A stretch of 38,318 nt of DNA from Actinomycetota bacterium (GCA_003563375.1 PWSB01000237.1:1-38318), one strand, 5' to 3'. Positions 5,576 to 33,477 are shown, numbered from the stretch's first letter. The notes: a model not told the origin generated them from the letters alone. Numbers and translations: made by a program.

Positions 5576-5729
5576 TTTAGTCCTCCTTTTTAGAGATTTT
5601 GGCATTACATGCTGGAAAAAGATAATAATAAGTAAACAAAGGCTGTCTTTCTTGTAATTTTTTAGAATATATCATTTTTACCTACAGGTATCAATAATCT
5701 TTGAGAAAATAGGTCCCTTTTGGGAAAGT

Positions 5730-5764
5730 AAGGGGAGAAAATTATAGAAATAGAGACTCCCCTT
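5730..5764 (-). terminator. Hairpin 8 nt downstream of the 5772..6758 stop codon (possible terminator or stabiliser)
   Basis: AAGGGGAG (5730-5737) and CTCCCCTT (5757-5764) form an 8-bp stem with a 19-nt loop. There is no clear U-tract on the minus strand. Confidence 0.35.
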
Positions 5765-5771
5765 ATTTTAC

Positions 5772-17355: not shown

Positions 17356-18483
17356 ATGAAAGCATTAGCCAAAACGGAAAAAATATTATTATATGACCGT
17401 TCAGACCCTTTAGAGCTGGATTGTGGTGCTGAGCTGCCCAATGTGGAAGTTGCCTTTGAGACCTACGGCAAGCTTAACAGCAGGGCAACTAATGCTATTC
17501 TCATCTTTCATGCTCTTTCAGGAGATGCCCATGCAGCTTTTTACCATACAAAGGATGATAAAAAACCAGGCTGGGGGGATTTTATGATCGGCCAGGGGAA
17601 ACCCTTCGATACCGAGAAATATTTTATAATTTGCGCCAATGTGCTTGGCGGCTGCAAAGGCAGCACTGGCCCGTCTTCAACCAATCCTGATACCGGCAAA
17701 CCTTACGGCACGTCATTTCCTCCAATAACTATTTCTGATATGTTAAAGCCCCAAAAAAAATTAATAGAGTATTTGGGAATCAAGAGACTATTGTGCACCG
17801 CAGGGGGTTCGATGGGAGGGATGCAGGCCCTGCAATGGGCTGTAAATTATCCTTCAAGTCTAGAGGGTGCCATAATCATAGCCACCTCCCCCACCCATAC
17901 TGCCCAGGCTATAGCTTTTAACAGCGTAGGAAGGTATGCAATACTATCAGACCCCAATTGGAAAACTGGGGATTATTACCATAATGGATCAAGGCCACTT
18001 ATTGGCCTAAAGACTGCAAGGATGATAGGACATATTACTTATCTTGGCCAGTTATCTATGGAAGAAAAGTTTGGAAGGAAAATACAGGAAGGAAAAGGCT
18101 GCAGCAAAATCGATTTTTCCAAGGAATTTGAAGTGGAAAGCTATTTACAATACCAGGGAGATTCTTTTGTTAAAAGATTTGACCCTAATTCCTATCTCTA
18201 TATTACAAAAGCCATTGATGCCTTTGATATTTACAATGGCAAAAAAAACCTTGCCCAGGCATTAAAGAATGTTCAGGCCAAAACAATGGTGATCTCTTTT
18301 ACTTCTGATTGGCTGTATCCAAAGGAAGAATCCTTAAAAATAGTAAAGGCCCTAAAGATAAATAGCATAGACACTGCTTACTGTAATATAGACTCGCCTT
18401 ACGGCCATGATTCCTTCCTTGTCGATTTGCCTAAATTCAAGGATGCGGTAAAGGGTTTCCTAAAAGCCTTGGGGGATAGATGA
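17356..18483 (+). CDS. metX: Homoserine O-acetyltransferase
   Basis: It is an alpha/beta hydrolase with the nucleophile elbow GGSMGGMQALQW and a C-terminal GHDSFL block. Confidence 0.9.
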   Translation: MKALAKTEKILLYDRSDPLELDCGAELPNVEVAFETYGKLNSRATNAILIFHALSGDAHAAFYHTKDDKKPGWGDFMIGQGKPFDTEKYFIICANVLGGCKGSTGPSSTNPDTGKPYGTSFPPITISDMLKPQKKLIEYLGIKRLLCTAGGSMGGMQALQWAVNYPSSLEGAIIIATSPTHTAQAIAFNSVGRYAILSDPNWKTGDYYHNGSRPLIGLKTARMIGHITYLGQLSMEEKFGRKIQEGKGCSKIDFSKEFEVESYLQYQGDSFVKRFDPNSYLYITKAIDAFDIYNGKKNLAQALKNVQAKTMVISFTSDWLYPKEESLKIVKALKINSIDTAYCNIDSPYGHDSFLVDLPKFKDAVKGFLKALGDR

Positions 18484-19058
18484 CACATCCTATTTTCTTA
18501 GAATGGATAGAAAATAATTCAAAGGTCTTGGTTCTTGGCTGCGGCTCGGGTGAAATACAGCAAGAGCTTATCTCACATAGAAAGGCAAGTTGTTTTGGGC
18601 TGGACATCTCTGAAACAAAAGTACTGGCATCCATCTCAAAAGGCTTATCAGTTATCCAGGGTGACATAAATAAGGATTTGGATGATTACCCCCCCGCTTT
18701 TTTTGATTATGTCCTGGCTGATGATATCCTCCAGCTGACCCATGAACCAAAAAAAGTAATAAGGGATATTTTGACCATTGGGAAAAAGGCAATAGTAAGT
18801 TTTCCCAATTTTGCATATATAAAGATACGATTATCCATACTGTTTACTGGAAAGATGCCAAAGACTGAAATATTGCCTTATGACTGGTATGAGACCCCTA
18901 ATATTCATCTTTTTACAGTAAAAGACTTTCTTCAATTCTGCAGGGATGAAAAAATCCATGTTTTAGATTATATTTATACGGTCAGCCAAGGAAAAAGGAC
19001 AGTAAATTTTGCACCTAATCTGACTTCAGAATTTGCATACTTCCTTTTGGAAAAATAA
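18480..19058 (+). CDS. metW: Methionine biosynthesis protein MetW
   Basis: It has the SAM-MTase-like VLVLGCGSGE motif and ...LSVIQGD..., and shows MetW family architecture. Its start overlaps the metX stop (ATGA). Confidence 0.85.
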   Translation: MTHPIFLEWIENNSKVLVLGCGSGEIQQELISHRKASCFGLDISETKVLASISKGLSVIQGDINKDLDDYPPAFFDYVLADDILQLTHEPKKVIRDILTIGKKAIVSFPNFAYIKIRLSILFTGKMPKTEILPYDWYETPNIHLFTVKDFLQFCRDEKIHVLDYIYTVSQGKRTVNFAPNLTSEFAYFLLEK

Positions 19059-19484
19059 TCATGCCCAGCCTTTAGGGGTGCTTATCCTAAAGCTTTTTTT
19101 AGCCAATAATTCAAATAAATCATGCATTTTATCTTTGTTAAAATAAAAAAGATGGCTGCTGCATCCACAGTCTGAGGAACCGAACCCAGGACAACCATGA
19201 AATCTTTGAGCCACTAGCTTGGCTGTTGGGCATTCAATTTTTATTGTAGATTCTTTATATAAGATATAATCCAGTCTGATACTGCCGCTGTTGAGCAAAT
19301 AATCTATATGCCAGTATAATTTTTTCTTATCAGCCAAATGCCTTGTTAGCCTGCTCTTTAAACCTTTCATCGCCGAACCGATATAAGCATACCCTCCTGG
19401 ATCAAATTGTATTAGTCGCAGTTTTCCAATAACGGTTGAGAATTTTTCCGTACAGGATAGAACCAGGCAGTAAGTGCCCTTCAT
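19059..19484 (-). CDS. DUF123 / GIY-YIG (Uri) superfamily nuclease-like protein
   Basis: It has GTYCLVL...GGYAYIGSA...LKSRLTRH...KKLYWHIDYLL. The ATG at 19484 forms an ATGA overlap with the upstream ORF's stop, so I prefer it over the track start at 19526. Confidence 0.65.
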   Translation of the reverse strand: MKGTYCLVLSCTEKFSTVIGKLRLIQFDPGGYAYIGSAMKGLKSRLTRHLADKKKLYWHIDYLLNSGSIRLDYILYKESTIKIECPTAKLVAQRFHGCPGFGSSDCGCSSHLFYFNKDKMHDLFELLAKKSFRISTPKGWA

Positions 19485-19909
19485 TTCTTGAGGATCCTGG
19501 TAAGGGTCACTAATGTTTTCATGCATGCGGTTTTGCCTGTCTTAGCATAATTTATAATGGGTATTATCTTATCATTGTTTAAAGAAATATAGTGCAGACT
19601 GCATATCCATTTACCCTCAATGAATTCCAGTGACATTTTTTTAAGATTAGGAGTGATTTCCATTATAGAAGATAATACTTGGGTCAGGTTAGGCACCCAT
19701 ATAAGATCTTTTTTTTCTAGTTCAAAACTTGAATCAAAATTGGGCACCCAGACCCTGCATTTCTCTTCTTTGCCCCAGCCTGAGATCTTTTCTAAAAAAA
19801 CAAAAAGATCCTGTGAGAGAGCCAGAAAACGGTCGCCGGCATTCCACTTGCATAAAACCTGTATTTCTTTATTTTTGCAAAGGTTGATATATTTTTGAGA
19901 GATCTCCAT
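19481..19909 (-). CDS. Hypothetical protein (142 aa), no family recognised
   Basis: The ORF is bracketed by translational-coupling overlaps: TAATG with the lipA stop, and ATGA with the DUF123 gene. Confidence 0.5.
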   Translation of the reverse strand: MEISQKYINLCKNKEIQVLCKWNAGDRFLALSQDLFVFLEKISGWGKEEKCRVWVPNFDSSFELEKKDLIWVPNLTQVLSSIMEITPNLKKMSLEFIEGKWICSLHYISLNNDKIIPIINYAKTGKTACMKTLVTLTRILKK

Positions 19910-20778
19910 TATTTTCCTTCAGCTGCTTTTTTTAATAGGAGGGATGCCTTATAAGAAGAACGGACAAATGCCCCGCTTATCACATTTTTTATTCCCGCCA
20001 TTTCTGCTAACTCTCTCAATTCTTCATATTCTTCGTTTGAATAATATTTTGTTACATTAATATTATTTCTGGTAGGGCTAAGATATTGGCCTATAGTCAC
20101 CATATCACAGTCAACCTCGTGGAGATCTTTTAGGAGTAAGCCAACCTCGTCCATGGTCTCCCCAAGGCCTACCATAAAACCCGATTTGGTATAAAGTCCT
20201 TTTTTGATTTTTTTAGCTTCTTTCAATATTTCGAGGGAAGCCCTGTAGTCTGCTCCCGGCCTTATTTTGCTATAATTCCTCTCTATAGTCTCAATATTAT
20301 GGTTTAAAACAGAGATAGGTTGAGAGACTATCGTCCTTAAGCTTTCTTTGTTTCCTCCAAAATCTGGTATCAGGCATTCGATCAGGCAGCCTGGTATCCT
20401 TTTTTTTATCTCTTTTACGGTTAGAGAAAAATGTTGTGCGCCACCATCTGCTATATCATCCCTTGTGACTGAAGTAAGGACCACATATCTTAAACCCATT
20501 TTGCTTGCTGTAATACCAATATTTACAGGCTCATTTTCGTCCAAAGGTAAGGTTTTTTTGGAATCGATACTGCAAAAGGCACAATTTCTTGAACACCTAT
20601 CCCCCATAAGGAGAAAAGTGGCGCTCCTTTTGCTAAAACACTCAAAGATATTAGGGCAATTTGCGCTCTGGCAAACAGTATGCAGGTTTGATTCCTCTAT
20701 CAGGCTTTTTACTTCCTTGATAACATTATTGTCCAGGCTTAATCTTTTTTTAAGCCAATCAGGTCTGTGGTCCGACAA
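19909..20778 (-). CDS. lipA: Lipoyl synthase (radical SAM)
   Basis: It has the auxiliary cluster CQSANCPNIFEC and the radical-SAM CSRNCAFC motif. Confidence 0.9.
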   Translation of the reverse strand: MSDHRPDWLKKRLSLDNNVIKEVKSLIEESNLHTVCQSANCPNIFECFSKRSATFLLMGDRCSRNCAFCSIDSKKTLPLDENEPVNIGITASKMGLRYVVLTSVTRDDIADGGAQHFSLTVKEIKKRIPGCLIECLIPDFGGNKESLRTIVSQPISVLNHNIETIERNYSKIRPGADYRASLEILKEAKKIKKGLYTKSGFMVGLGETMDEVGLLLKDLHEVDCDMVTIGQYLSPTRNNINVTKYYSNEEYEELRELAEMAGIKNVISGAFVRSSYKASLLLKKAAEGK

Positions 20779-21637
20779 TTTTACCGATAATCCTATCCAG
20801 GTCCTTTATGGTGCCAAAACCGACCTCTATCCTGCCTTTTTTCTTATTTATCTTTATTTTTACTGGTGCATCCAGGTAGGAAGAAAGCCTGTTTGAAAGT
20901 TCTGGAAGTTTTGAAGGCTGGATAACCCTATTATCATTATCCTGGGTACCCTTATTTTTTTGTGCATCTACAAGCTTTTCCACATCTCTGACGCTTAGGC
21001 TCTTTTTGGTGATGGTCTCCGCGAGCCTCAGCTGGTCTTTTTTGTCTTCTAGTGCAATAAGGCACCTGGCATGGCCAGCGCTCATTTTTTGCTCATCCAC
21101 TAGCTTTTGGACTTCTACGGGGAGAGACAGAAGCCTTATAAAATTAGTTATGGTTGCCCTGCTTTTTCCTACCTTCTGTGAAAGCTGGTCATGGGTGATG
21201 TCAAACTCATCTATAAGCTGCTTGAAAGTAAAAGCCAATTCTATGGGGCTTAAATCATCGCGGTGAATATTTTCAATCAAGGCCATCTCAACCGATGCAG
21301 TATCGTCTACATCTTTTGCGATCATGCATGGAATATTATCCATCCCTGCCAGCTTGGAGGCCCTATATCTTCTCTCCCCTGCAATGATCTCATATTTTTC
21401 TTCATAGCCATCAAGGCTTCTGACCAATATAGGCTGCATCACCCCGAATTCTTTTATGGAATCAGAAAGTTCAGCCAAAGAATCATCCTTAAAACTTTGT
21501 CTTGGCTGGTTTTTATTAGGGACTATATTAGATAAAGGAATTTCTATTACCCTGAACCTATCAGTGTTTTGTTTTTGTTTAGAGCTTGGAATCAGTGCCT
21601 CAAGTCCCCTGCCTAATCCTCTTCTTGCCATTTTCAA
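20759..21637 (-). CDS. parB: Chromosome partitioning protein ParB/Spo0J
   Basis: It has GLGRGLEALI, the GERRYRA arginine patch and a central HTH. Confidence 0.9.
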   Translation of the reverse strand: MKMARRGLGRGLEALIPSSKQKQNTDRFRVIEIPLSNIVPNKNQPRQSFKDDSLAELSDSIKEFGVMQPILVRSLDGYEEKYEIIAGERRYRASKLAGMDNIPCMIAKDVDDTASVEMALIENIHRDDLSPIELAFTFKQLIDEFDITHDQLSQKVGKSRATITNFIRLLSLPVEVQKLVDEQKMSAGHARCLIALEDKKDQLRLAETITKKSLSVRDVEKLVDAQKNKGTQDNDNRVIQPSKLPELSNRLSSYLDAPVKIKINKKKGRIEVGFGTIKDLDRIIGKIVGPQT

Positions 21638-22469
21638 TCACTTCCTTTGTCAAATTTTTATATGCCTGTGCTCCCTTGCATCCAGAGTCATAGATCATAA
21701 TTGGCTGCCCATAGCTTGGTGCTTCGCTTAATCTAACATTTCTTGGAATAATTGTTTCGAAGACTTTTTCCTTAAAATATTTCTTGACTTCATCCAACAC
21801 CTGTTCGGCAAGCTTTATCCTGGCATCGTACATGGTCATCACTGCGCCCGTGATCTTCAGATCTTCATTTAGGTTGCCTTTTACCAGGTTAATAGTATTT
21901 ATCAGCTGTCCCAGACCCTCCAGGGCATAATATTCACACTGGATAGGTATTAAAACCTCCTTTGAGGCAGTCAAAGCATTTATAGTCAAAAGGCCTAAAG
22001 CAGGAGGACAGTCTATAATTACGAAGTTGAACCTATCTTTTACTTTATCTAAACCTTTTTTTAGCTTGTATTCCCTTTTCATTCCAGAGACCATCTCCAC
22101 CTCAGCACCTGCTAGCTCTATGGAGGAAGGAAGTAGTTTTAGATTCTCATATTCGGTATCTAGGATTAAATTAGAAGGATCTTCATCTTCAATAAGTATT
22201 TCATAAACGGACCCTGTTATTTTTTCTGTTTTTACTCCTATGCCACTGGTAGAATTGCTTTGAGGGTCCAGATCTATCAACAGGGTTTTATAGCCTTCAG
22301 CTGCAAGATACGCCGCTAAATTGACCGCAGTGGTGCTTTTGCCAACTCCTCCTTTTTGGTTAGCAATGGCTATGATTCTGCATTCTTGTTCATTGCCCGG
22401 ATCATTTCTGATAATTTTTTTCCTCCCAAACAGCTTTTTAAGCAGTTGCATAAACATACAATTATTCAA
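21600..22469 (-). CDS. parA: Chromosome partitioning ATPase ParA/Soj
   Basis: It has the deviant Walker A NQKGGVGKSTT. The track start at 22469 is a TTG overlapping the rsmG stop. In-frame ATGs at 22457 and 22451 are alternatives. Confidence 0.9.
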   Translation of the reverse strand: MNNCMFMQLLKKLFGRKKIIRNDPGNEQECRIIAIANQKGGVGKSTTAVNLAAYLAAEGYKTLLIDLDPQSNSTSGIGVKTEKITGSVYEILIEDEDPSNLILDTEYENLKLLPSSIELAGAEVEMVSGMKREYKLKKGLDKVKDRFNFVIIDCPPALGLLTINALTASKEVLIPIQCEYYALEGLGQLINTINLVKGNLNEDLKITGAVMTMYDARIKLAEQVLDEVKKYFKEKVFETIIPRNVRLSEAPSYGQPIMIYDSGCKGAQAYKNLTKEVIENGKKRIRQGT

Positions 22470-23197
22470 ATGGGTTTGCCGGGTTCCCTTTTGATCTTAG
22501 CAAATTTTCGAGGGTATCCTGGTGAGGTAAGAAATTTTTTCCTTATCTCTAGAAAAACCCTGAACTCGGTAAAATCCGGTATGTTTGCTTCATGCAAACC
22601 TACAATTTCTCCTCCCAGCAGTTTAATAAAATCTTTATTCTTATCTATTTCCTCAAAAACCCTAAGGCTTTTATAAAATATTATTTTACCATTTATTTTA
22701 GAAAATGGAATTACTAATTCCAGCAATATGCTAAAATCAGTGACGGCTCTTGCCAATACAATGTCATAGGCCTCCCTGTGTTTTTTATCTTTTGCCAGCT
22801 GTTCTGCCCGGCCTCTAAGGGCTACAACATTTTCCAAGCAAAGGGTGTCTATTGCTCTATTTAAGAAATCTATTTTTTTTGATGATTTATCCATAAGGCA
22901 GACCTTCTTATCCGGAAGGAACAAGGAAAGGAGAAGGCCTGGAAGTCCTCCCCCGCTGCCTATGTCTATGAGCCGGTAACTGCCTAAAAAGAACCTTTCT
23001 TTGTGGGCCAATATCGATAATGAATCCAAAAAATGCCTTAAAAATATTTGATCCTTTTCCTTGGTCCCTATTAAATTGGTTCTTTTATTGGCTTCAAACA
23101 ATATGTCCAAGTATAACAATGTTTTTAAAACCGCCTTGGGTGGCGGTTTTATCTCCATTTCATTTAAAAAATTATTGATCTTTTTTCTGTAATCCAA
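22466..23197 (-). CDS. rsmG: 16S rRNA m7G527 methyltransferase RsmG (GidB)
   Basis: It has the NLIGT...HFLDSL and IDIGSGGGLPGL SAM motifs, and sits in the conserved position after mnmG. Confidence 0.9.
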   Translation of the reverse strand: MDYRKKINNFLNEMEIKPPPKAVLKTLLYLDILFEANKRTNLIGTKEKDQIFLRHFLDSLSILAHKERFFLGSYRLIDIGSGGGLPGLLLSLFLPDKKVCLMDKSSKKIDFLNRAIDTLCLENVVALRGRAEQLAKDKKHREAYDIVLARAVTDFSILLELVIPFSKINGKIIFYKSLRVFEEIDKNKDFIKLLGGEIVGLHEANIPDFTEFRVFLEIRKKFLTSPGYPRKFAKIKREPGKPI

Positions 23198-23200
23198 TGC

Positions 23201-25051
23201 TTACTTCCTTCTTAGGTTAAGCAATAAAATGGATATATCCGAAGGAGATACACCTGCTATCCTGGAAGCCTGCCCAAGGGTGTTTGGCCTTTTTCTCGAC
23301 AATTTTTCTTGAGCCCCATAGGTCAACCCCTTAAATCTAAAATAATCTATATTGGAGGGAATGGCAAATTTTTCAAGCTTTTTAGTTTTTTTTATTTCCT
23401 CAAACTGGCGGTTAATATACCCTTCATATTTTATGATTATCTCTGCTTGTTTCCATACCCCGTCGCCATAACCATTGCTGGCATGATCCAGCCAGTATTT
23501 GATATCCCCTATGTTAACCTGTGGCCTTTTAAAGAGGTCGTATAGCCTGATGGGTTCTTTTAGCTTAAGGTTTGGTCTGTATCTATTTGCTTTTTGGGGT
23601 TTAATCGTTATATTTTTTAGAAGTTTTATCAGGGAATCTATAGCCTGCTGCTTCTTTAATGTCTTCTGATGGGCTTCTTTTTCAAGAAAGCCTGCTTCAA
23701 ACCCCAGGGTTGCTAGCCTGAGGTCTGCATTATCAGATCTCAAAAACAACCTATACTCTGCCCTTGAGGTATACATCCTGTAGGGCTCACTGAGGTCTTT
23801 TGTGATAAGATCATCTATTAAGACTCCTATATAGCTTGTATCCCTTGTCAATATCAGGGGTTTTTTGCCCAAGATTTTCAAGGATGCATTAGCTCCGGCT
23901 ACAAAACCCTGCACAGCGGCTTCTTCATATCCCGAGGTTCCATTGATCTGGCCAGCAAAATAAAGATTCTCTATCAGCTTGGATTCCAGGGTATAGTTTA
24001 ACTGGCAGGGTATTAGGTAGTCATATTCTACTGCATAGCCCGGCCTTATGATGCTTGCTTTCTCCAGTCCTTCTACTGTATTTACTATTTTTTCCTGCAG
24101 GTAGAAAGGCATGCTGGTGGTAAGTCCCTGTAGGTACATCTCGTTTGTGTGAACCCCTTCAGGTTCAATAAATACAGGATGTTTATGTTTTTGGGGAAAA
24201 TTTAGGACTTTTCTGTCAATTGAGGGGCAATGCCTTGGCCCATGGGTATTAATTATGCCTGATCTTATAGGAGAATACTTTATATTTTGGGCTATTAAAT
24301 CATGTGTTTTACTATTGGTATATGTTAGAAAGCTTGGAATATTTGCTCTTTCTCCCCTTTTGGGACAAGCCCAAAAAGAAAAACTACCAGCTTCCTCATC
24401 ACCTGAGCTGATAATAGTCTTTGAAAAATCTATGCTTCTTTTATCCACTCTGGGCGGTGTGGCGGTTTGAAACCTGTCCATCTCAAAACCAAGGCTGGTG
24501 AGGCTTTTGGTCAGGTTCATGGCAGGGTTCTCTCCCATTCTTCCTGCATAATAGTCCTTATCCCCTATTATTATCCTTCCCCTCAAAAAGGTCCCGCTAG
24601 TGATTATCACAGCTTTAGCCAAAAATTGCATTCCGTCTTCGGTTAGTACTCCTTTTACCTTTATACCGTCGACTAAAAGCTTAGCAACCGTTCCCTGTTT
24701 TAATAAAATGTTATCTGTAGTTTCTAAAAGATGCTTCATCAAGGTCTCATATTCTTTTTTATCTATCTGGGTTCTCAAAGCCTGGACTGCCGGCCCTTTT
24801 TTTTGATTTAATAATTTGAACTGTATACCTGCTAGGTCAGCAATTTTGCCCATCTGCCCCCCCATTGCATCCAATTCTTTTATAAGCTGGCTTTTGCCCA
24901 TCCCTCCTATTGCGGGATTGCAGGGCATAAGGGCTACTTTGTCTAGATTTATGGTAAGAAGAAGAGTATTTAATTTTAATCGGGCACAAGCAAAGGCTGC
25001 TTCACATCCTGCATGGCCTGCTCCTATAACTATTACATCATACATGGTCAT
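23201..25051 (-). CDS. mnmG: tRNA uridine-5-carboxymethylaminomethyl synthesis enzyme MnmG (GidA), copy A (616 aa)
   Basis: It has YDVIVIGAGHAGCEAA, MPCNPAIGG, HGPRHCPSID and GQINGTSGYEEAAVQG. Its start overlaps the copy B stop (ATGA). Confidence 0.9.
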   Translation of the reverse strand: MTMYDVIVIGAGHAGCEAAFACARLKLNTLLLTINLDKVALMPCNPAIGGMGKSQLIKELDAMGGQMGKIADLAGIQFKLLNQKKGPAVQALRTQIDKKEYETLMKHLLETTDNILLKQGTVAKLLVDGIKVKGVLTEDGMQFLAKAVIITSGTFLRGRIIIGDKDYYAGRMGENPAMNLTKSLTSLGFEMDRFQTATPPRVDKRSIDFSKTIISSGDEEAGSFSFWACPKRGERANIPSFLTYTNSKTHDLIAQNIKYSPIRSGIINTHGPRHCPSIDRKVLNFPQKHKHPVFIEPEGVHTNEMYLQGLTTSMPFYLQEKIVNTVEGLEKASIIRPGYAVEYDYLIPCQLNYTLESKLIENLYFAGQINGTSGYEEAAVQGFVAGANASLKILGKKPLILTRDTSYIGVLIDDLITKDLSEPYRMYTSRAEYRLFLRSDNADLRLATLGFEAGFLEKEAHQKTLKKQQAIDSLIKLLKNITIKPQKANRYRPNLKLKEPIRLYDLFKRPQVNIGDIKYWLDHASNGYGDGVWKQAEIIIKYEGYINRQFEEIKKTKKLEKFAIPSNIDYFRFKGLTYGAQEKLSRKRPNTLGQASRIAGVSPSDISILLLNLRRK

Positions 25052-26826
25052 TTTTTCCTATGTTTCACGTGAAACATCTTCAAATAACACAAAAGAGATA
25101 AAAAATCAGAAGGGCTCACACCCTGTAACCGGCGGGCCTGCCTCAAAGAATCCGGTTTACTTTCTTCAAGGGCGAGAATAGCCTCGTTAGAAATATTTTT
25201 TATATTTTTATAATTGATTTTTTGTGGTATTTCAAAATCTAAGCTGTTCTTTATCTTCTCGATTTCTTTTACCTGTCTTTCTATATATTCTCTATATTTT
25301 AAGTTAATGTATACGCTATCTATGTCTTTGGTGCATAATTTATATTTACCCTTCAAAATATCCTTGTATTTATTGTAAAAAGACTCTTTGGTTGGTTGTC
25401 CGAAATTATTGTTTTCTAATATTTCCTTCCCAGCAAGATGGATTTTTTCATATTTTTCCTCTATTATCTGCGCTTTTTCATTAAAGCCTATTATTTTTAA
25501 GAATTTTAGCATCCTATAATCGGCGTTATCATGCCTGTGGTAGAGCCTAAATTCATTTCTAGAAGTGAGCATTCGATATGGTTCAGTTATTTTTCTGCTA
25601 ACTAGATCATCGATCAGTACCCCTATATAACCATCTTCCCTGTTGATCTGGATCCCATTTTTATCCTGGGACATCCTCCCTGCATTGATGCCTGCAATTA
25701 TACCCTGGGCAGCGGCTTCTTCATATCCTGTGGTTCCATTTATCTGCCCAGCAAAAAACAGGCCTTTGAGTTTTTTACATTCAAGTCTGTTGTTTATCTG
25801 GAATGGCAGGATATAATCATATTCTACCCCATATCCCGGCCTGGTAATAACCGCCTTTTTTAGTCCTTTTATTTTTTTTAACATGCCCGCCTGGATTTCT
25901 TCACTGAGAGTTGTCATCAACCCATGTATATACATTTCAGATGTCCTCCTGCCTTCAGGCTGGATAAACAAGAGATGGCTTTTTTTATCAGGATATCTGG
26001 TTACCTTTTCTTCGATGGATGGGCAGTATTTAGGGCCTTCTGACTCTAACTTGGCAAAAAAAGAGCCATTCAGGTTTTTTTTGATATAATCTATACCATC
26101 TTCTCCAATATGAGTCATATGATTGTTGAATTGGCTCCTGCCGTCATATTTATCCTCAAAAGAAAACATTTCAGGATGATCGTCATAATATTGGAGTTTT
26201 AATCCTCTAAAATCTATTGCCTTGGAATCCACCCTGGGAGGTGTGTTTGTATTTAATCGTCCAAACCTGATGCCCAATTTCTCAAGATTCCTGGATAATT
26301 TATTAGAAGGAACCTCCCCTTGCCTTCCTGCCTCAATTTTATTTGCCCCCCAAAAAACCTTGCCCCTCAAAAAGGTGCCGGTGCATAAGATTACACATTT
26401 TGCAAAATATTTGTAGCAGTCACTGGTTTCTAAAAAATATAACCCCTTATCCTTCCCTATATTTACCACCATTGCCTGCCTTAGGGTTAAATTCTCTTGA
26501 TTTTCAACAATTTTCTTCATAGCCAGAAAATACTCTCTCTTGTCTATTCCCGCCCTAAGCGTTCTCACCGCTGGACCTCTTGATGTGTTTAACATCCTCA
26601 TATGAAGGAAGGTCCTATCGGTATTTTTGGCCATCTCGCCGCCCAATGCATCGATCTCTCTAACCATCTGCCCTCTTCCCGGGCCTCCAATAGAACTATT
26701 GCAGGGCATGGCGGCAATAGAATCCATATTTATGGAAAGAAGCAGTGTATTTGCTTTTAGGCGGGCAGCGGCTAATGCTGCTTCACATCCAGCATGTCCT
26801 GCCCCTATCACTATTACCTCATACAT
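25048..26826 (-). CDS. mnmG: MnmG (GidA) paralog, copy B (592 aa)
   Basis: It has YEVIVIGAGHAGCEAA, MPCNSSIGG, EGPKYCPSIE and GQINGTTGYEEAAAQG. It is full length, not the short TrmFO type. Confidence 0.85.
   Translation of the reverse strand: MYEVIVIGAGHAGCEAALAAARLKANTLLLSINMDSIAAMPCNSSIGGPGRGQMVREIDALGGEMAKNTDRTFLHMRMLNTSRGPAVRTLRAGIDKREYFLAMKKIVENQENLTLRQAMVVNIGKDKGLYFLETSDCYKYFAKCVILCTGTFLRGKVFWGANKIEAGRQGEVPSNKLSRNLEKLGIRFGRLNTNTPPRVDSKAIDFRGLKLQYYDDHPEMFSFEDKYDGRSQFNNHMTHIGEDGIDYIKKNLNGSFFAKLESEGPKYCPSIEEKVTRYPDKKSHLLFIQPEGRRTSEMYIHGLMTTLSEEIQAGMLKKIKGLKKAVITRPGYGVEYDYILPFQINNRLECKKLKGLFFAGQINGTTGYEEAAAQGIIAGINAGRMSQDKNGIQINREDGYIGVLIDDLVSRKITEPYRMLTSRNEFRLYHRHDNADYRMLKFLKIIGFNEKAQIIEEKYEKIHLAGKEILENNNFGQPTKESFYNKYKDILKGKYKLCTKDIDSVYINLKYREYIERQVKEIEKIKNSLDFEIPQKINYKNIKNISNEAILALEESKPDSLRQARRLQGVSPSDFLSLLCYLKMFHVKHRKK
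25061..25076. promoter_or_regulatory. parS: parS (ParB-binding centromere-like site), perfect palindrome
   Basis: TGTTTCACGTGAAACA fits the canonical TGTTNCACGTGAAACA parS consensus exactly. It extends to the 18-bp palindrome ATGTTTCACGTGAAACAT at 25060-25077. It lies inside the last codons of mnmG copy B (KMFHVKHRKK*), 8 nt upstream of the copy A ATG. Confidence 0.8.
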
Positions 26827-26840
26827 TTACAATCACCAGA

Positions 26841-26856
26841 TGTTTCACGTGAAACA
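26841..26856. promoter_or_regulatory. parS: parS (ParB-binding centromere-like site), perfect palindrome
   Basis: The identical 18-mer ATGTTTCACGTGAAACAT at 26840-26857 lies in the 66-nt mnmE/mnmG-B spacer, 13 nt upstream of the copy B ATG. Confidence 0.8.
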
Positions 26857-26892
26857 TTTCGCCAATTTTTCTTATAATATTATTTTTTGTCA

Positions 26893-28317
26893 TTATTTTC
26901 CTATACAAAACCTGGAAAAAATATTTTCGAGTACCTCTTCCCTTGCTGTGTCCCCGGTTATTTCACCTAAAAGTCCTGAAGCAATTTTAAGGTCTGCTGA
27001 CGCGAACTCTTCTGACAGTTTATTTGCCATAGCTGTTTCGGCATCTTGCAACACCTCCCTTACATCCTGCATTATTTTTTTATGCCTCTGGTTTATAATT
27101 ATTTTATCTTCCAGGTTTAATTCTCCGTTTCCCAGTACTTTCTTTTTTATTGAATGTTCCAAATCTTCTATTCCGGTCTTTTTCAATGCAGACACCCTTA
27201 TCGTTTGCTCGGGCCCAAAAGGCAGTCCCAGCTTTTTAATATCCTCTTTTTGACCTAGATCCACCTTATTTATAACCAAGATAGAGTTTTTGTTTTCTAT
27301 TTTCCCAATTATATTAAAATCTCGGCCATCAAGTTTCCTGCTTCCATCTACCACCATTAATACAATATCTGCTTCATCTATGTGGCCTAGGCTTCTTTCC
27401 ACGCCAATCTTCTCAACGCTGGAGGCGGTTTTTCTAATTCCCGCAGTATCAATGATTATCAGAGGTATCCCGCCTACATATATAATTTCTTCAACCGCAT
27501 CCCTTGTAGTTCCCGGAATAGAGGTCACTATGGCTTTATCTTTTTTAACCAAAAGGTTTAGAAGGCTGGATTTTCCGACATTAGGTTTGCCGACTATGGC
27601 AACCTTGACCCCATTTTTTATTATTTCACCCTTTGATTCATCTTTTATAAGCTGCTCAACCCTTTCTAAGAGCACTCCGGTCTTTTTTCTCAACTCCTCA
27701 TAAGGTGTAGTCTCTAGATCTTCTTCTATAAAATCTATACTGGCTTCCAGCTGGACCAATATCTCTACTATCCCATCCCTTATGCTGGCTATCTCTTTTT
27801 TTATATTCCCTTTTATATTATTTGCGGCTATTTTAAGACTCTCTTCTGTTTTTGAGTTTATTAAGTCGATTACCGCTTCAGCTTGTGATAGGTCTATTCT
27901 TCCATTTAAAAAAGCGCGCTTTGTAAATTCTCCTGGTTCAGCCAGCCTGGCCCCCCTATCCATGCATAGGCTTAATACCTTGGTGGTAGGGGTTATCCCT
28001 CCGTGGGTGTTTATCTCTACTACATCCTCCCTGGTATATGAATAGGGATTTCTCATCAACCCCACGATAACCTCATCCACGACCTCTCCCCTTCCATCTA
28101 TGATCTCGCCATATAAAAGAGAATATGATTTTAATTCATTTATTGTTTTTCCATTTTTTGAGCGGAAAATGCTGTCTGCCACCCTTATGGCTTCTTTTCC
28201 GCTTATTTTTACTATACCTATAGCCGCTTCACCTGGTTTGGTGCCTATTGCAGCGATAGTGTCTTCTTCTATATAAAACATATTATTAATCTTTTTTTTA
28301 TTCATTTTGCCATCCAA
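26893..28317 (-). CDS. mnmE: tRNA modification GTPase MnmE (TrmE)
   Basis: It has DTIAAIGT, the G-domain motifs GKPNVGKSSLLN, DTAGIR and NKVD, and a C-terminal CIGK. The true start may be an internal Met (28305 or 28281). Confidence 0.9.
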   Translation of the reverse strand: MDGKMNKKKINNMFYIEEDTIAAIGTKPGEAAIGIVKISGKEAIRVADSIFRSKNGKTINELKSYSLLYGEIIDGRGEVVDEVIVGLMRNPYSYTREDVVEINTHGGITPTTKVLSLCMDRGARLAEPGEFTKRAFLNGRIDLSQAEAVIDLINSKTEESLKIAANNIKGNIKKEIASIRDGIVEILVQLEASIDFIEEDLETTPYEELRKKTGVLLERVEQLIKDESKGEIIKNGVKVAIVGKPNVGKSSLLNLLVKKDKAIVTSIPGTTRDAVEEIIYVGGIPLIIIDTAGIRKTASSVEKIGVERSLGHIDEADIVLMVVDGSRKLDGRDFNIIGKIENKNSILVINKVDLGQKEDIKKLGLPFGPEQTIRVSALKKTGIEDLEHSIKKKVLGNGELNLEDKIIINQRHKKIMQDVREVLQDAETAMANKLSEEFASADLKIASGLLGEITGDTAREEVLENIFSRFCIGK

Positions 28318-28487
28318 AACATAAAAATATTAATCTAATTATTAAAAAAAGACAATTTTAGCACAAAGTACTACTGCCTATATTATAACAAAACAATAAG
28401 GATGATTTCTAAAGGATAATGCAATACAGCGTGTGGTTTGATTAAAATTTATATCCTGAGAGCCTTAAGGGTTATGGGCTTTGTCCC

Positions 28488-29066
28488 TTAATTGTTTTCC
28501 TGGACCGGATATATGATTATCCTTCTGAATGGCTCTTCATTTTTGCTTTTAGTCCGAATTTTGGCAAAACCAGAAAGAGTATCGTGGATGATCTTTCTGT
28601 CAAATGCAGACATCGGCTGCATTTTTATTTTTCTGCCTTCTTTAATTGCTTTTTTTGCTAGCTTTATGGCTGTCTTCTTTATCTTTTCAGCCTTTTTTTG
28701 CCTGTAGTCCTTGATATCTATTAAAATATTTTTATTTACCAACTTTTTCTTCGCTGATATAAGGTTTATTAGATATTCAATAGCTTCAATATTTTTTCCA
28801 TTTTTTCCAATAGCCATGCTTAAATCATCCCCATATACAGCAAATTTTAAATTGTTTTCATCCACCTCTACCCTTAAATCTTCACCGATGCAAATGGCTT
28901 CCAGGGTGTTTTTTATCAAATCGACTATTCTATCCAGGCCAGAGCATTTCTGCTCGACTTGCTCCCCTTTTATCTTTTTGTTTTCAATCAGGGAACCGCT
29001 CTTTTGTTCCTCTTCTAAGGATTTTACAAATGAATCCAAGGCATCATCCATTTTTTTATCTTTCAT
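28488..29066 (-). CDS. jag: Jag/KhpB-type RNA-binding protein (KH + R3H)
   Basis: It has a KH-like GKNGKNIEAIEYL block and an R3H block (DRKIIHDTL). It sits in the conserved position between yidC and mnmE. Confidence 0.8.
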   Translation of the reverse strand: MKDKKMDDALDSFVKSLEEEQKSGSLIENKKIKGEQVEQKCSGLDRIVDLIKNTLEAICIGEDLRVEVDENNLKFAVYGDDLSMAIGKNGKNIEAIEYLINLISAKKKLVNKNILIDIKDYRQKKAEKIKKTAIKLAKKAIKEGRKIKMQPMSAFDRKIIHDTLSGFAKIRTKSKNEEPFRRIIIYPVQENN

Positions 29067-29089
29067 CTATAAACACCTCACAATCAATA

Positions 29090-29881
29090 TTATTTCTTTC
29101 TTCTTTTTTTTCTTTTTTTTCCTGAGATAACTTTTTTTTCATCAGAAGTCAATTGTTTTTCTGTTTGCTTCTGTTCCGGTTCCTTTTTTTCTTCTGTCTC
29201 TTTTCCTTCTGTCCGCTTGACCCATTTATTTACAAGGCCTTGCTGCCCAATGGACCAAATATTGGTAGTAACCCAGTATATAAGTATCCCTGAAGGAAGA
29301 TTGATCGATATAAAACCAAATACTACAGGCATAGCATAAGATATTACAGATTGCTTTGGGTCTGTAGTAGTCATCTTTGTAGTCAAAAACATGGTAGCCA
29401 CCATCAATATCACCAGGATATAATATTGGTCCGGCTGGTTCAGGTTAAGCCATAAAAAATTATAATTCGGGTTAGGTACATTATTTAACATAAAGGGTCC
29501 CAGCACATTTCTCACAATATCAGAAGGTTCCCTCAATGCCTGGAACAAGGCAAAAAATATGGGCATCTGCAAAAGAAGGGGGAGGCACCCCGCCAGGGGA
29601 TTGACATTGTTCTGCCTGTAAAACTCCATAGTCTTTTCCTGGACCTTTTGTTTATCGTCCTTGTATTTTTTCTGGATTTCCTTGAGTTTGGGCTGCATCT
29701 TCTGCATCTTGGCCATTGATTTTGTCTGGCTTATAGTAAGGGGGGTAAGGACCACCCTTACGATCAGAGTCAATAGTATTATGACTAAACCATAGCTGGG
29801 TACTACATTCTGATACAAAAATATGACTATTTGTTCAATAACAGTCTGAACAGGTCTTAACAATTCCAATATTTGAGCCAA
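29090..29881 (-). CDS. yidC: Membrane protein insertase YidC (short form)
   Basis: It has a KMQKMQPKLKEIQKKYKDD amphipathic hairpin, NPLAGCLPLLLQMPIFFALF and a Lys/Arg-rich tail. The TTG start lies 9 nt after a GGGAGG SD. Confidence 0.9.
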   Translation of the reverse strand: MAQILELLRPVQTVIEQIVIFLYQNVVPSYGLVIILLTLIVRVVLTPLTISQTKSMAKMQKMQPKLKEIQKKYKDDKQKVQEKTMEFYRQNNVNPLAGCLPLLLQMPIFFALFQALREPSDIVRNVLGPFMLNNVPNPNYNFLWLNLNQPDQYYILVILMVATMFLTTKMTTTDPKQSVISYAMPVVFGFISINLPSGILIYWVTTNIWSIGQQGLVNKWVKRTEGKETEEKKEPEQKQTEKQLTSDEKKVISGKKRKKRRKK

Positions 29882-31036: not shown

Positions 31037-31825
31037 ATGTTGGAAAACCAGGCCGGTCCAAATAAAAAATCGAATGTAAAAATCCCGGTAAGGATCGCCG
31101 TCTATGATAACCTGAAGAGCATACCCCGGGTAGTAGAGATGGACTTTGATAATGTATCAGCCTTTATAGATGAATCCTCTCAAAGGACCTATACCCTTTC
31201 TCACCAGGCCGGAGGCCAGATCCCATATACCATAATAAGGGAGATAATTGAAAATCTTATACATGCAGAATTTTGTGAGATTATCATCACCGTCCTGGAC
31301 GGGGGAAACCATATCATCATCTCAGACCAGGGGCCCGGTATAGAAAATAAAGACAAGGCTTTCCTGCCCGGGTTTACCTCAGCCACCAGAAAGATGAAGG
31401 AATATATAAGGGGGGTTGGGTCAGGCCTGCCTATCGTAAAGGAGACCATAACTTTTTCAGGAGGGTCGATAGATATAACTGATAATATAAAGAGGGGGAC
31501 AGTGGTCTCTTTGAAAATAGATTCACCAAAGGAAGGCCAAAAAAAAGAACCTGTACCTTCAGATGAGACAAAAAAGAAACCGGAAACAGATTTCGGTGAT
31601 CTGAAACTAACCATTAGGCAGAAAAAATTGCTCTCCCTTATTTTGGAAATGGAGGAAGCAGGGCCTTCAAAGATTTCAAATGAACTAAACTTCAGCCTTT
31701 CTACTTCTTATAGGGAACTGATATTTTTAGAGAATAAAAAGCTGGTTGCCTCAAGCAGCTCGGGGAAAAGAAGATTAACCGAAAAAGGCATTAAATATCT
31801 TGAATATTATTCAAATAATTTTTAA
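31037..31825 (+). CDS. GHKL (histidine-kinase-like) ATPase domain protein with C-terminal winged-helix domain
   Basis: It has an N-box-like EIIENLIHAE, G1 DQGPGI and G2 GVGSGLP. After a Lys/Glu-rich linker comes LTIRQKKLLSLILEMEEAGPSKISNELNFSLSTSYRELIFLENKKLV, which looks like a MarR/wHTH. It ends 12 nt before the dnaA ATG. Confidence 0.65.
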   Translation: MLENQAGPNKKSNVKIPVRIAVYDNLKSIPRVVEMDFDNVSAFIDESSQRTYTLSHQAGGQIPYTIIREIIENLIHAEFCEIIITVLDGGNHIIISDQGPGIENKDKAFLPGFTSATRKMKEYIRGVGSGLPIVKETITFSGGSIDITDNIKRGTVVSLKIDSPKEGQKKEPVPSDETKKKPETDFGDLKLTIRQKKLLSLILEMEEAGPSKISNELNFSLSTSYRELIFLENKKLVASSSSGKRRLTEKGIKYLEYYSNNF

Positions 31826-33193: not shown

Positions 33194-33234
33194 AAACTTT
33201 GATTGTTGAATGTATTGTTTATAACCCCCAGTTT

Positions 33235-33444
33235 TTGTCAACATTTCTATATTTTACGGTAAATAAAAAAGGATTGTTTTTTAGTAGTGTATAAATGCCT
33301 TTTTTATCAACACAGTTTTTGGCCTTTATCAACACACTGTTCTTGGCCACATCGAGGGTTTATAATGCTTCTTAACAGTTTAAACACCTTCTATATATTT
33401 ATTACTAAAGTTATTTAAATAAATAAATATATATAATAGAATGG
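33235..33444. other. oriC: oriC part 2: DnaA boxes plus AT-rich putative unwinding element between dnaA and dnaN
   Basis: Boxes are TTGTCAACA (33235-33243) and TTATCAACA at 33304-33312 and 33326-33334. The last two share an 11-mer TTATCAACACA, 22 bp apart. A nearly pure A/T run spans 33391-33444. Confidence 0.65.
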
Positions 33445-33477
33445 TTGATAATTAAGCAATTTAAAAAGAGGTTGGAA

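What the first reader, a model, noticed from the sequence alone, without database searches (positions are those of the whole stretch)
23201..26826. Two divergent, full-length mnmG (gidA) paralogs in tandem within the ori-proximal operon
The usual arrangement mnmE-mnmG-rsmG is replaced by mnmE-mnmG(B, 592 aa)-mnmG(A, 616 aa)-rsmG. Both copies keep the FAD motif (GAGHAGCEAA), both conserved Cys contexts (MPCN..IGG; GP.(H/Y)CPSI) and GQINGT.GYEEAA. Neither copy looks like a decayed gene or a short TrmFO. By eye they share about 60% identity over the first ~95 residues and much less in the C-terminal third. The C-terminal region is the part of MnmG that contacts MnmE. The copy B stop and copy A start overlap (ATGA), which suggests coupled translation. 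Possible explanations are a heterodimeric MnmG, two MnmE-partner specificities, or a paralog recruited to a different tRNA or substrate.
Basis: partly seen in the sequence, partly recalled or inferred. Interest (0 to 1): 0.7.

Follow-up and report, generated by a model that had tools for sequence, protein, structure and literature searches.

The report
Conserved tandem MnmG paralogs flanked by parS
An uncultured group of Actinomycetota carries two diverged copies of the tRNA-modification gene mnmG side by side, each preceded by a chromosome-partition (parS) site; the extra copy is intact and strongly conserved here but has become a truncated protein without its catalytic cysteines in sister lineages, which suggests it is a partner subunit rather than a spare enzyme.

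Summary
Two full-length mnmG genes lie between mnmE and rsmG: B (25048-26826, 592 aa) and A (23201-25051, 616 aa). They are 42% identical, and both score above NCBIfam's MnmG cut-off.

This is not an assembly artefact. Two independent assemblies of the same organism carry the pair. In 54 related metagenome loci, A follows B in 36 of 36 cases with room to see it, and mnmE precedes B in 47 of 47. None of 80 mnmG loci from other phyla has a second copy.

NJ trees place A and B as sisters (bootstrap 66-84), so the duplication arose within the lineage. Long B is as constrained as A and MnmE (dN/dS about 0.1) and keeps the essential catalytic residues.

New findings:
1. In sister lineages (Ca. Humimicrobiia) B is a protein of about 370-540 aa. 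It lacks the MnmE-binding helical domain and both catalytic cysteines, but keeps the FAD motifs and is still under purifying selection.
2. Perfect parS palindromes bracket B in nearly all loci, so the duplicated unit was parS plus mnmG.

Most likely (inferred) A and B form one MnmE-dependent enzyme as a heterodimer. Two separate homodimers remain possible. This is a new variant of a known kind.

The parts
26893..28317 (-). mnmE (tRNA U34 modification GTPase). It is the only copy in the operon and ends in the FCIGK motif.
   Evidence: TIGR00450 scores 400 bits against a cut-off of 252.6. Pfam finds TrmE_N, MnmE_helical and MMR_HSR1. mnmE lies upstream of B in 47 of 47 related loci.
26841..26856 (.). 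parS site 1: a perfect 16-bp palindrome TGTTTCACGTGAAACA in the mnmE-B spacer, 14 nt before the B start codon.
   Evidence: only 2 sites with <=2 mismatches in 38 kb, against 0.01 expected. The consensus TGTTNCACGTGAAACA is given in PMC7022226. The site is conserved upstream of B in related loci.
25048..26826 (-). mnmG copy B (592 aa). It has a full MnmG fold, an intact catalytic core and canonical motif 1. The middle of its helical domain is shortened.
   Evidence: The AF2 model has pLDDT 91.8 and TM 0.89-0.91 to MnmG structures. dN/dS is about 0.10-0.11 in related long-B pairs.
25061..25076 (.). parS site 2: the same perfect palindrome inside the last codons of B (translated MFHVKH), 9 nt before the first ATG of A.
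   Evidence: In 17 of the 19 long-B genes examined the same DNA is read in another frame as NVSRET (NVSRGT in L110), so the DNA element is what is conserved.
23201..25051 (-). mnmG copy A (616 aa, or 614 aa from the ATG at 25045). It has all three Pfam MnmG domains. The A clade carries fixed changes in motif 1 (Y276H, E281D, D282R, R286N).
   Evidence: A lies downstream of B in 36 of 36 related loci.
22466..23197 (-). rsmG (gidB), 16S rRNA m7G527 methyltransferase.
   Evidence: TIGR00138 scores 151 bits against a cut-off of 99.5.
21600..22469 (-). parA (Walker-type partition ATPase).
   Evidence: Pfam AAA_31, CbiA, ParA and MipZ.
20759..21637 (-). parB, the protein expected to bind the two parS sites.
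   Evidence: Pfam ParB_N, HTH_ParB and ParB_C.

Best explanation
Shown. An ancestor of a deep-branching, uncultured Actinomycetota group tandemly duplicated a unit made of a parS site plus mnmG. The group includes Ca. Humimicrobiia and relatives. The result is mnmE - parS - mnmG(B) - parS - mnmG(A) - rsmG - parA - parB next to the replication origin. Both copies have since been kept under purifying selection. In this window both are full-length, and by every residue tested both are catalytically competent.

Inferred. A and B do not work as two redundant enzymes. They work as two subunits of one MnmE-dependent machine, most likely an A:B heterodimer that replaces the usual MnmG homodimer. The E. 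coli MnmE2-MnmG2 complex is already asymmetric: only one MnmG protomer binds MnmE and holds FAD, and the MnmE and tRNA sites on a protomer overlap. A heterodimer would fix that division of labour in the genes. A keeps the canonical helical domain. B keeps the canonical motif 1. In sister lineages B has gone further and become a non-catalytic protein that keeps the FAD-binding motifs.

The tight packing (ATGA overlap or 2-nt gap) would favour production in equal amounts. The parS sites make this locus the local ParB-loading centre. They are a second, DNA-level function of the same segment.
For: Real and conserved. Independent assemblies are 99.83% identical and show the same tandem. The tandem is present in L001-L004, L092 and L152. 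Among 54 metagenome loci, A is downstream in 36 of 36 and mnmE upstream in 47 of 47. No second copy occurs in 80 loci from other phyla.

In-lineage duplication. The A clade and the B clade each get 100% bootstrap. A+B together against 92-104 outgroups get 66-84%. Both copies have a parS about 65-71 nt before their GxGxxG motif (median), while 0 of 74 outgroup loci have one within 300 nt upstream.

Both copies functional. TIGR00136 scores are above the cut-off. Window A has a residue within the outgroup repertoire at 29 of 33 experimentally important positions, and window B at 28 of 33 (list from PMC12397908 Table S3). B's model has pLDDT 91.8 and TM 0.91 to the MnmE-bound protomer 9hip_C. dN/dS is 0.10-0.11 for B, 0.07-0.13 for A and 0.12-0.14 for MnmE.

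Partner-subunit inference. B is never found without A. The short-B family (about 50 clusters) has lost C47 in 50 of 52 sequences (F or Y in 45), lost C277 in 44 of 52, and lost motif 1 and the whole helical domain. It keeps G13, G15, H16, G18, E20, N372, G373, Y377, E378 and Q383 almost invariant. Its dN/dS is mostly 0.16-0.30. Its model matches the MnmG core at TM 0.79-0.83.

Each clade has its own fixed changes. A: E69Q, Y276H, E281D, R286N. B: P49S, K56R, H252I, E298Q, L439H, L448M, G452L, plus the shortened sub-domain at 461-546.

The asymmetry of the E. coli complex is described in PMC12397908.
Against: No physical evidence for an A:B contact. No multimer prediction and no dimer-interface residue list were available.

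In this window both copies keep full catalytic sets and the MnmE-contact residues. That fits two separate homodimeric enzymes equally well.

In short-B lineages A carries the same derived motif 1 and must be catalytically sufficient. So B is not needed for chemistry as such.

The sister relationship of A and B rests on NJ bootstraps of 66-84% only. No likelihood tree was made, no other Actinomycetota were identified among the outgroups, and two long branches may attract each other.

The metagenome loci are not all independent organisms.
Confidence: 0.45

Rival explanations
1. Two separate enzymes. A2 and B2 homodimers each work with the single MnmE but have diverged in specificity. They could differ in tRNA subsets, in the glycine (cmnm5U) versus ammonium (nm5U) route, or in reductant use. 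The short forms in sister lineages would then be a later, separate change of function.
For: Both long copies keep C47, N48, C277, K283, R427, R436, Y551, R554 and the last helix that contacts MnmE. Both are under equally strong purifying selection. MnmEG is known to run two reactions with different amine donors (PMC2790889). The clade-specific fixed changes lie around the active-site pocket: motif 1 and positions 198/200 in A; positions 49, 56 and 298 in B.
Against: It does not explain why B is never found without A (36 of 36). It also does not explain why B, once it has lost both cysteines and the MnmE-binding domain, is still kept at the same position under purifying selection. No tRNA or substrate data exist.
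Confidence: 0.3
2. The duplication was selected mainly at the DNA level. It doubled the parS site and so gave a stronger or better-spaced ParB-loading centre. The mnmG(B) ORF came along as the spacer, and its protein is redundant or only a dosage back-up.
For: Perfect parS sites bracket B in 49 of 53 loci with a complete B gene, 1331-1864 bp apart. The sites are conserved even where the reading frame across them differs. They are the only parS-like sites in the 38-kb window. B's coding capacity shrinks in sister lineages while the two sites stay.
Against: dN/dS of about 0.1 for long B and about 0.2-0.3 for short B shows selection on the protein, which a spacer role cannot produce. The short family has 47 invariant and about 60 nearly invariant columns. 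A spacer would not need an intact ORF across about 50 diverged clusters.
Confidence: 0.1
3. B was acquired horizontally and inserted between mnmE and mnmG. It did not arise by local duplication.
For: A and B are no more similar to each other (42%) than to Bacilli MnmG (A 47-51%, B 44-47%). Support for the A+B grouping is only moderate.
Against: A+B group together in every NJ analysis, with two distance corrections and added outgroups. Both copies share the clade-specific feature of a parS directly upstream, which is absent from 74 outgroup loci. No mobile-element genes are nearby.
Confidence: 0.1
4. An assembly artefact, or one copy is a decaying pseudogene.
For: None found.
Against: The same tandem is present in ENA, Logan and JGI assemblies of the same organism. 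Both ORFs are intact and strongly constrained.
Confidence: 0.01

Closest known systems
MnmG (GidA) of the MnmE-MnmG complex (E. coli, Aquifex aeolicus, Chlorobaculum tepidum; PDB 3ces, 2zxi, 3cp8, 9hip)
   Same: Both window proteins have the same domain plan, the same catalytic cysteines and FAD motifs, an adjacent mnmE and the same ori-proximal operon. B's model superposes at TM 0.89-0.91.
   Different: The known enzyme comes from one gene and forms a homodimer. Here two paralogs only 42% identical are always encoded together. A has fixed substitutions in the near-invariant motif 1. B has a shortened middle helical sub-domain. In sister lineages B is non-catalytic.
TrmFO / RlmFO (folate- and FAD-dependent m5U methyltransferases, the recognised 'GidA paralogues')
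   Same: They belong to the same superfamily. The short B forms resemble them in size (about 370-540 aa) and in lacking the C-terminal helical domain.
   Different: Window A and B score 58-82 bits against TrmFO models whose cut-offs are 262 and 429. TM to TrmFO is only 0.37-0.45, against 0.8-0.9 to MnmG. The short B forms have lost the cysteines that this enzyme class needs, so they are not convergent TrmFO-type enzymes.
Thermus thermophilus GidA-related protein (PDB 2cul, 232 aa, function unknown)
   Same: It is another truncated member of the family that consists of little more than the FAD-binding part.
   Different: It is much smaller, only weakly related (E = 4e-5 to 9e-12), and not known to be linked to mnmE or mnmG.
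Heteromeric tRNA/RNA-modification enzymes that evolved from duplicated homomers and have one inactive subunit (ADAT2/ADAT3 from TadA, Trm61/Trm6 from TrmI, METTL3/METTL14). This comparison rests on my own knowledge, not on a tool result.
   Same: The evolutionary pattern is the same. A homo-oligomeric enzyme gene duplicates. One paralog keeps catalysis. The other loses catalytic residues but is retained as an obligatory partner.
   Different: Those cases are eukaryotic and have been shown biochemically. Here the heteromer is only inferred. In this particular window the second subunit still looks catalytically competent.
Chromosomal parS / ParABS centromere
   Same: Both sites match the consensus TGTTNCACGTGAAACA perfectly (PMC7022226). 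They lie a few kb from dnaA and next to parAB.
   Different: The sites bracket one gene with strict conservation. One of them is embedded in that gene's last codons. A parS directly upstream of mnmG was not seen in 74 other loci.

Membership tests
MnmG/GidA (TIGR00136 equivalog) | Whole-protein score above the curated equivalog cut-off (524.85 bits) | tested here: met
   A scores 787.8 and B 657.7. B matches in two stretches because of its divergent middle helical region.
MnmG/GidA (TIGR00136 equivalog) | N-terminal FAD-binding GxGxxG motif and the second FAD motif GQINGTxGYEE | tested here: met
   Both copies have GAGHAGCEAA and GQINGT(S/T)GYEEAA. These are invariant in the A clade (31 sequences) and the B clade (75 sequences).
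MnmG/GidA (TIGR00136 equivalog) | Two catalytic cysteines (E. coli C47 and C277) | tested here: met
   Present in window A and B, and invariant in both clades. Lost in the short-B family of sister lineages: C47 kept in 2 of 52, C277 in 8 of 52.
MnmG/GidA (TIGR00136 equivalog) | MnmG-specific motif 1 (E. coli 273-287, GPRYCPSIEDKVxRF) | tested here: inconclusive
   B is canonical (GPKYCPSIEEKVTRY). A reads GPRHCPSIDRKVLNF. Y276H and E281D fall at positions invariant in 92 outgroups, and R286N at a position that is R or K in 89 of 92. These changes are fixed in all 31 A-clade sequences. The cysteine and K283 are kept. The functional effect is unknown.
MnmG/GidA (TIGR00136 equivalog) | C-terminal helical domain carrying the MnmE-contact residues | tested here: met
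   A matches both Pfam helical models. B matches SAM_GIDA_C only, but keeps R427-S431, R436, Y548, Y551, R554 and the last helix. Its model aligns over the full length with the MnmE-bound protomer 9hip_C. B's segment 461-546 is 27-33 residues shorter.
MnmG/GidA (TIGR00136 equivalog) | Overall fold: FAD domain, two insertion domains and a helical domain | tested here: met
   B only: pLDDT 91.8, TM 0.89-0.91 to 2zxi, 3cp8 and 9hip. A was not modelled, but aligns end to end with 3cp8 at E = 2.7e-170.
MnmG/GidA (TIGR00136 equivalog) | Formation of (c)mnm5U34 together with MnmE, GTP, CH2-THF, FAD and NADH | not testable with these tools
   Needs enzymology or tRNA mass spectrometry.
TrmFO (TIGR00137 / NF003739) | Score above the curated cut-off; architecture of about 440 aa without a helical domain | tested here: not met
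   Scores are 57.6-81.7 bits against cut-offs of 262 and 428.65. TM to TrmFO is 0.37.
Chromosomal parS site | 16-bp palindrome matching TGTTNCACGTGAAACA | tested here: met
   Two perfect matches at 25061-25076 and 26841-26856, with 0.01 expected by chance. The consensus is from PMC7022226.
Chromosomal parS site | Origin-proximal location with parAB encoded nearby | tested here: met
   dnaA is at 31838-33190 and dnaN at 33445-34584. The cumulative GC-skew minimum is near 31 kb. parA and parB are at 20759-22469.
Chromosomal parS site | Specific binding and loading of ParB | not testable with these tools
   Needs ChIP-seq or in vitro binding.
Heteromeric enzyme with a paralogous partner subunit | Strict co-occurrence and adjacency of the two paralogs | tested here: met
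   A is downstream of B in 36 of 36 loci. No B-type gene was found without A.
Heteromeric enzyme with a paralogous partner subunit | Physical A:B complex | not testable with these tools
   No multimer prediction is available and no interface residue list could be retrieved.

The most novel reading that the evidence does not exclude
MnmG in this actinobacterial group has become an obligate heterodimer. One protomer (A) docks MnmE and carries out catalysis. The other (B) began as a second active protomer, which is the state seen in this window, and evolved into a non-catalytic scaffold that keeps the FAD-binding motifs. If so, it would be a natural, genetically fixed version of the asymmetric MnmE2-MnmG2 complex seen by cryo-EM. 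It would also be a bacterial counterpart of ADAT2/ADAT3-type evolution. The whole cassette in addition serves as the chromosome's paired parS centromere.
Probability: 0.35. Interest if true: 0.75.

Novelty: new variant of a known kind. Interest (0 to 1): 0.6.

Why it matters
MnmEG is a universally conserved, mechanistically unresolved tRNA-modification machine, and its human homologues (GTPBP3/MTO1) cause mitochondrial disease. A central open question is why the complex is asymmetric, and whether the two MnmG protomers have different jobs (binding MnmE versus binding tRNA).

This lineage provides a natural series in which the two protomers are encoded separately. The series runs from two competent copies to one competent copy plus a Cys-less, helical-domain-less partner. 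That makes the division-of-labour hypothesis directly testable by co-expression and mutagenesis, without engineering heterodimers.

It also shows that databases currently label the truncated partner either 'MnmG' or 'FAD-dependent oxidoreductase'; the first is wrong for a protein without the catalytic cysteines and the second uninformative.

The strictly conserved pair of parS sites around one gene, one of them inside its coding sequence, is a neat case of overlapping DNA-level and protein-level constraint.

Tried and rejected
1. The single genome-contig scan used peptide patterns too specific to this B. It returned only generic MnmG genes at 40-46% identity. It was useless for taxonomy, but I reused the loci as 80 outgroup and control loci.

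2. P0037 (a '476-aa B' at 67% identity) looked like a close short form. Its contig L091 is full of frameshifts (yidC and mnmE are also split), so I discarded it as an assembly artefact.

3. P0082 is equidistant from A and B, and I suspected a pre-duplication lineage. It is the only mnmG in an unrelated diderm locus (LpxC, LpxD and OmpH neighbours). Its only use is to show that a short middle helical region is compatible with a stand-alone MnmG.

4. I could not obtain the MnmG homodimer-interface residues from the held literature. So I could not test whether short B conserves that interface.

5. Promoter and terminator scans of 22400-29200 gave fewer hits than shuffled sequence and no usable signal.

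6. Literature searches for two gidA/mnmG genes, MnmG paralogs or duplication, and Humimicrobiia found no description of this arrangement.

7. My first DNA pattern had the wrong spacing (12 N instead of 13) and found nothing. I corrected it after a local test.

8. I considered that the short B forms might be TrmFO-like enzymes that evolved convergently. I rejected this because the cysteines are lost and the fold matches MnmG, not TrmFO.


Full report
OBSERVATION

On the minus strand the window encodes, in order:
- yidC (29090-29881)
- a jag/KhpB-like protein (28488-29066)
- mnmE (26893-28317)
- a 592-aa GIDA protein, copy B (25048-26826)
- a 616-aa GIDA protein, copy A (23201-25051)
- rsmG (22466-23197)
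- parA (21600-22469)
- parB (20759-21637)
- a LipA-like radical-SAM protein (19909-20778)

dnaA and dnaN lie on the other strand at 31838-34584. The cumulative GC skew has its minimum near 31 kb, so this is the origin region.

A and B are 42% identical by BLASTP over their full length. Both exceed NCBIfam's MnmG equivalog cut-off of 524.85 bits (A 787.8, B 657.7), and both are far below the TrmFO cut-offs.

B's stop overlaps A's first ATG as ATGA. A second ATG six bases downstream would give a start parallel to B's (MYDVIV... against MYEVIV...) and a 2-nt gap instead.

NOT AN ARTEFACT, AND NOT A ONE-OFF

Two other assemblies of the same organism (ENA ERZ27301261, Logan SRR490155) are 99.83% identical over 9-12 kb and carry the same pair. 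A JGI contig also carries both proteins.

B has its own clade of about 80 protein clusters at 51-69% identity. After that, scores drop to ordinary Bacilli MnmG at 45-47%. A has a better-conserved clade at 64-76%. Source names for members of these clades are Actinomycetota, Ca. Humimicrobiaceae and Ca. Hydromicrobium, the last two in class Ca. Humimicrobiia.

Contigs encoding B relatives that are only 51-61% identical show the same order, mnmE-B-A-rsmG-parA-parB-radical SAM.

I designed a DNA pattern for a B-specific peptide (WG-x4-EAGR[Q/M]GE[I/V]). On the loci in hand it hit every B gene, no A gene and none of the 80 generic loci. I then scanned the metagenome collection with it and obtained 57 hits, of which 54 are B-type loci. 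A lies directly downstream on the same strand in 36 of 36 loci with at least 600 nt of room. mnmE lies upstream in 47 of 47. Some of these contigs are the same organism from different samples, so the counts overstate independence.

As a control, none of 80 mnmG loci from other phyla (+/- 4 kb) has a second GIDA ORF.

ORIGIN

NJ trees with 100 bootstraps give these groupings:
- A clade: 100
- B clade (long plus short forms): 100
- short forms as one group nested inside B: 98-100
- A+B together against 92-104 outgroups: 84 (core columns), 66 (all columns), and 76-78 after adding the twelve closest non-A, non-B proteins, under Kimura or gamma distances

This favours a local tandem duplication followed by divergence. 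The support is moderate, no likelihood tree could be made, and no other Actinomycetota were identified among the outgroups.

BOTH COPIES LOOK FUNCTIONAL HERE

Against the list of experimentally important MnmG residues (PMC12397908 Table S3), window A has a residue within the outgroup repertoire at 29 of 33 positions and window B at 28 of 33. The shared positions include G13, G15, C47, N48, G52, G53, R96, T199, T201, C277, K283, Y308, Y377, R427, R432, R436 and Y551.

Between related genomes with unsaturated dS, dN/dS is 0.10-0.11 for long B, 0.07-0.13 for A and 0.12-0.14 for MnmE. An AlphaFold2 model of B built on a B-clade alignment has pLDDT 91.8. It superposes on Aquifex, Chlorobaculum and E. 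coli MnmG at TM 0.89-0.91, including the MnmE-bound protomer 9hip_C. TM to TrmFO is 0.37.

HOW THE COPIES DIFFER

B is shorter because the middle of the helical domain (E. coli 461-546) is 27-33 residues shorter and only 11-17% identical to A or to E. coli. The first helical segment and the last bundle are kept at 38-49% identity. The MnmE-contact residues mapped by cryo-EM are kept too: R427-S431, E434-L437, Y548-Q555 and the last helix (for the map; for the residues). A similarly short MnmG (P0082) stands alone in its locus in an unrelated diderm, so this feature alone does not imply loss of function.

Each clade has fixed its own departures from residues that are at least 95% conserved in outgroups:
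- A: E69Q, Y276H, E281D. In addition D282R, R286N, K198Q and G200A. Most of these fall in or beside MnmG-specific motif 1, which becomes ordered against the MnmE swivel helix.
- B: P49S, K56R, H252I, E298Q, L439H, L448M, G452L.

So the copy that looks more 'standard' overall (A) is the one with a non-standard motif 1.

THE INFORMATIVE SISTER LINEAGES

In Ca. Humimicrobiia-type relatives the slot between mnmE and A holds a GIDA-only protein of about 370-540 aa. The gap before A is only 25-190 nt, so nothing is hidden by a frameshift.

This short-B family has about 50 clusters that are 39-65% identical. NCBI names the members either 'FAD-dependent oxidoreductase' or 'MnmG'. The proteins end at E. 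coli positions about 394-479. C47 is F or Y in 45 of 52 and is kept in only 2. N48 is G in 45 of 52. C277 is kept in only 8 of 52. Motif 1 and TPPR are degraded.

The FAD motifs and R174 stay almost invariant: G13, G15, H16, G18, C19, E20, A21, G369, N372, G373, Y377, E378, E379 and Q383. The family alignment has 47 invariant columns. dN/dS is mostly 0.16-0.30, against mostly 0.08-0.21 for A in the same genome pairs. So it is a constrained protein, not a pseudogene. Its model (pLDDT 84.2) matches the MnmG core at TM 0.79-0.83 and TrmFO at 0.45.

A protein without both cysteines and without the MnmE-binding domain cannot be a stand-alone MnmE-dependent enzyme. Yet it is kept, always next to A.

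THE parS SITES (UNEXPECTED)

The perfect palindrome TGTTTCACGTGAAACA occurs at 26841-26856, 14 nt before B's ATG. It occurs again at 25061-25076, inside B's last codons and 9 nt before A's first ATG. These are the only sites with up to 2 mismatches in the 38-kb window, against 0.01 expected. The sequence matches the chromosomal parS consensus TGTTNCACGTGAAACA (PMC7022226). parAB lie 2.6 kb away.

Of 53 loci with a complete B gene, 49 have both perfect sites, 1331-1864 bp apart. The most divergent lineage (L152) has two sites with one mismatch each at the same places.

In 17 of the 19 long-B genes examined the second site is translated as NVSRET (NVSRGT in L110). In this window the same DNA is read in another frame as MFHVKH. 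The DNA element is therefore what is conserved.

Both A and B have a parS about 65-71 nt before their GxGxxG motif (median), and 0 of 74 outgroup loci have one within 300 nt. The duplicated unit was therefore parS plus mnmG.

INTERPRETATION

Shown:
- a lineage-wide, ancient tandem duplication of parS plus mnmG
- two constrained proteins
- full catalytic equipment in both copies in this window
- progressive loss of catalysis and of the MnmE-binding domain in B elsewhere

Inferred, at about 45% confidence: A and B act together with the single MnmE, most simply as an A:B heterodimer in place of the MnmG homodimer. The E. coli alpha2-beta2 complex is intrinsically asymmetric. One protomer binds MnmE and FAD while the other is disordered and empty, and the MnmE and tRNA sites overlap. 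A heterodimer would fix that asymmetry genetically. From my own knowledge, the same route led from homomeric TadA and TrmI to ADAT2/ADAT3 and Trm61/Trm6.

The main rival, at about 30%, is two homodimeric enzymes with different tRNA or substrate specificity, for example the glycine versus ammonium routes (PMC2790889). That rival fits this window equally well. It does not explain the strict co-occurrence or the retained Cys-less forms.

A purely DNA-level 'parS spacer' role is contradicted by the dN/dS values. Horizontal acquisition is disfavoured by the trees and by the shared upstream parS. Artefact and pseudogene are excluded.

NOVELTY

Searches of the held literature found no description of tandem mnmG paralogs, of a truncated MnmG-like partner, or of parS sites bracketing mnmG. 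The proteins are clear members of a known family and the chemistry is presumably the known one. I therefore rate this as a new variant of a known kind, with moderate to high interest for the tRNA-modification field.

Noticed in passing
window 25061-25076 and 26841-26856: Two perfect parS palindromes (TGTTTCACGTGAAACA) bracket mnmG(B). One lies inside B's last codons. They are the only parS-like sites in the 38-kb window and are conserved at both positions across the clade. Different genomes read the second site in different frames (NVSRET versus MFHVKH).
   Followed up: yes
L087 4561-5913, L089 4511-5860, L092 6001-7455, and about 50 protein clusters (P0241-P0287, P0079, P0081): A conserved family of truncated MnmG-derived proteins. 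They lack both catalytic cysteines and the helical domain, keep the FAD motifs and have dN/dS of about 0.2-0.3. They always lie between mnmE and mnmG. Public annotation calls them either 'MnmG' or 'FAD-dependent oxidoreductase'.
   Followed up: yes
window 31037-31822 (+): A 262-aa protein with only a HATPase_c domain lies immediately upstream of dnaA on the same strand. The same neighbour of dnaA is present in the related loci where that region is in view (L001-L004, L085, L087, L092). It may be a conserved origin-region partner of dnaA in this group.
   Followed up: no
window 2486-6758 (-): Four consecutive genes each encode a xylose-isomerase-like TIM-barrel (AP_endonuc_2) protein (371, 280, 289 and 328 aa). 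A PHP-domain protein and an inositol-monophosphatase-family protein follow. This is a paralog array of unknown pathway.
   Followed up: no
window 23201-25051, residue aligned to E. coli E585: Window copy A has Gly at the position of E585, a residue reported as functionally important in the MnmE/GidA complex. It is E in 29 of 31 A-clade sequences and in 92 of 92 outgroups. Window copy B keeps E585 but has Ala at K589. This may be complementary or just local alignment noise.
   Followed up: partly
window 25045-25051: Copy A has two candidate start codons, ATG at 25051 (MTMYDV...) and ATG at 25045 (MYDV...). Gene callers disagree (616 aa versus 614 aa, P0121 versus P0123). Only the first gives the ATGA overlap.
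   Followed up: partly
window 17356-19526 and related loci (L001, L085): A DUF123 protein, a MetW-like methyltransferase and an alpha/beta hydrolase (probably MetX-like) follow the radical-SAM gene in the same order in related genomes. Synteny of the origin region is therefore conserved well beyond the mnmG pair.
   Followed up: no
L091 (GCA_034520345.1, JAXHNQ010000012.1): This MAG contig has many apparent frameshifts (yidC, jag, mnmE and both mnmG genes are split). Proteins called from it, such as the 476-aa P0037, are artefactually short.
   Followed up: yes
L151 4437-6224: A 595-aa MnmG without a Pfam GIDA_C_1st hit stands alone in a diderm bacterium's locus (next to OmpH, LpxD and LpxC, with no adjacent mnmE). 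So a shortened middle helical sub-domain has arisen independently elsewhere.
   Followed up: partly
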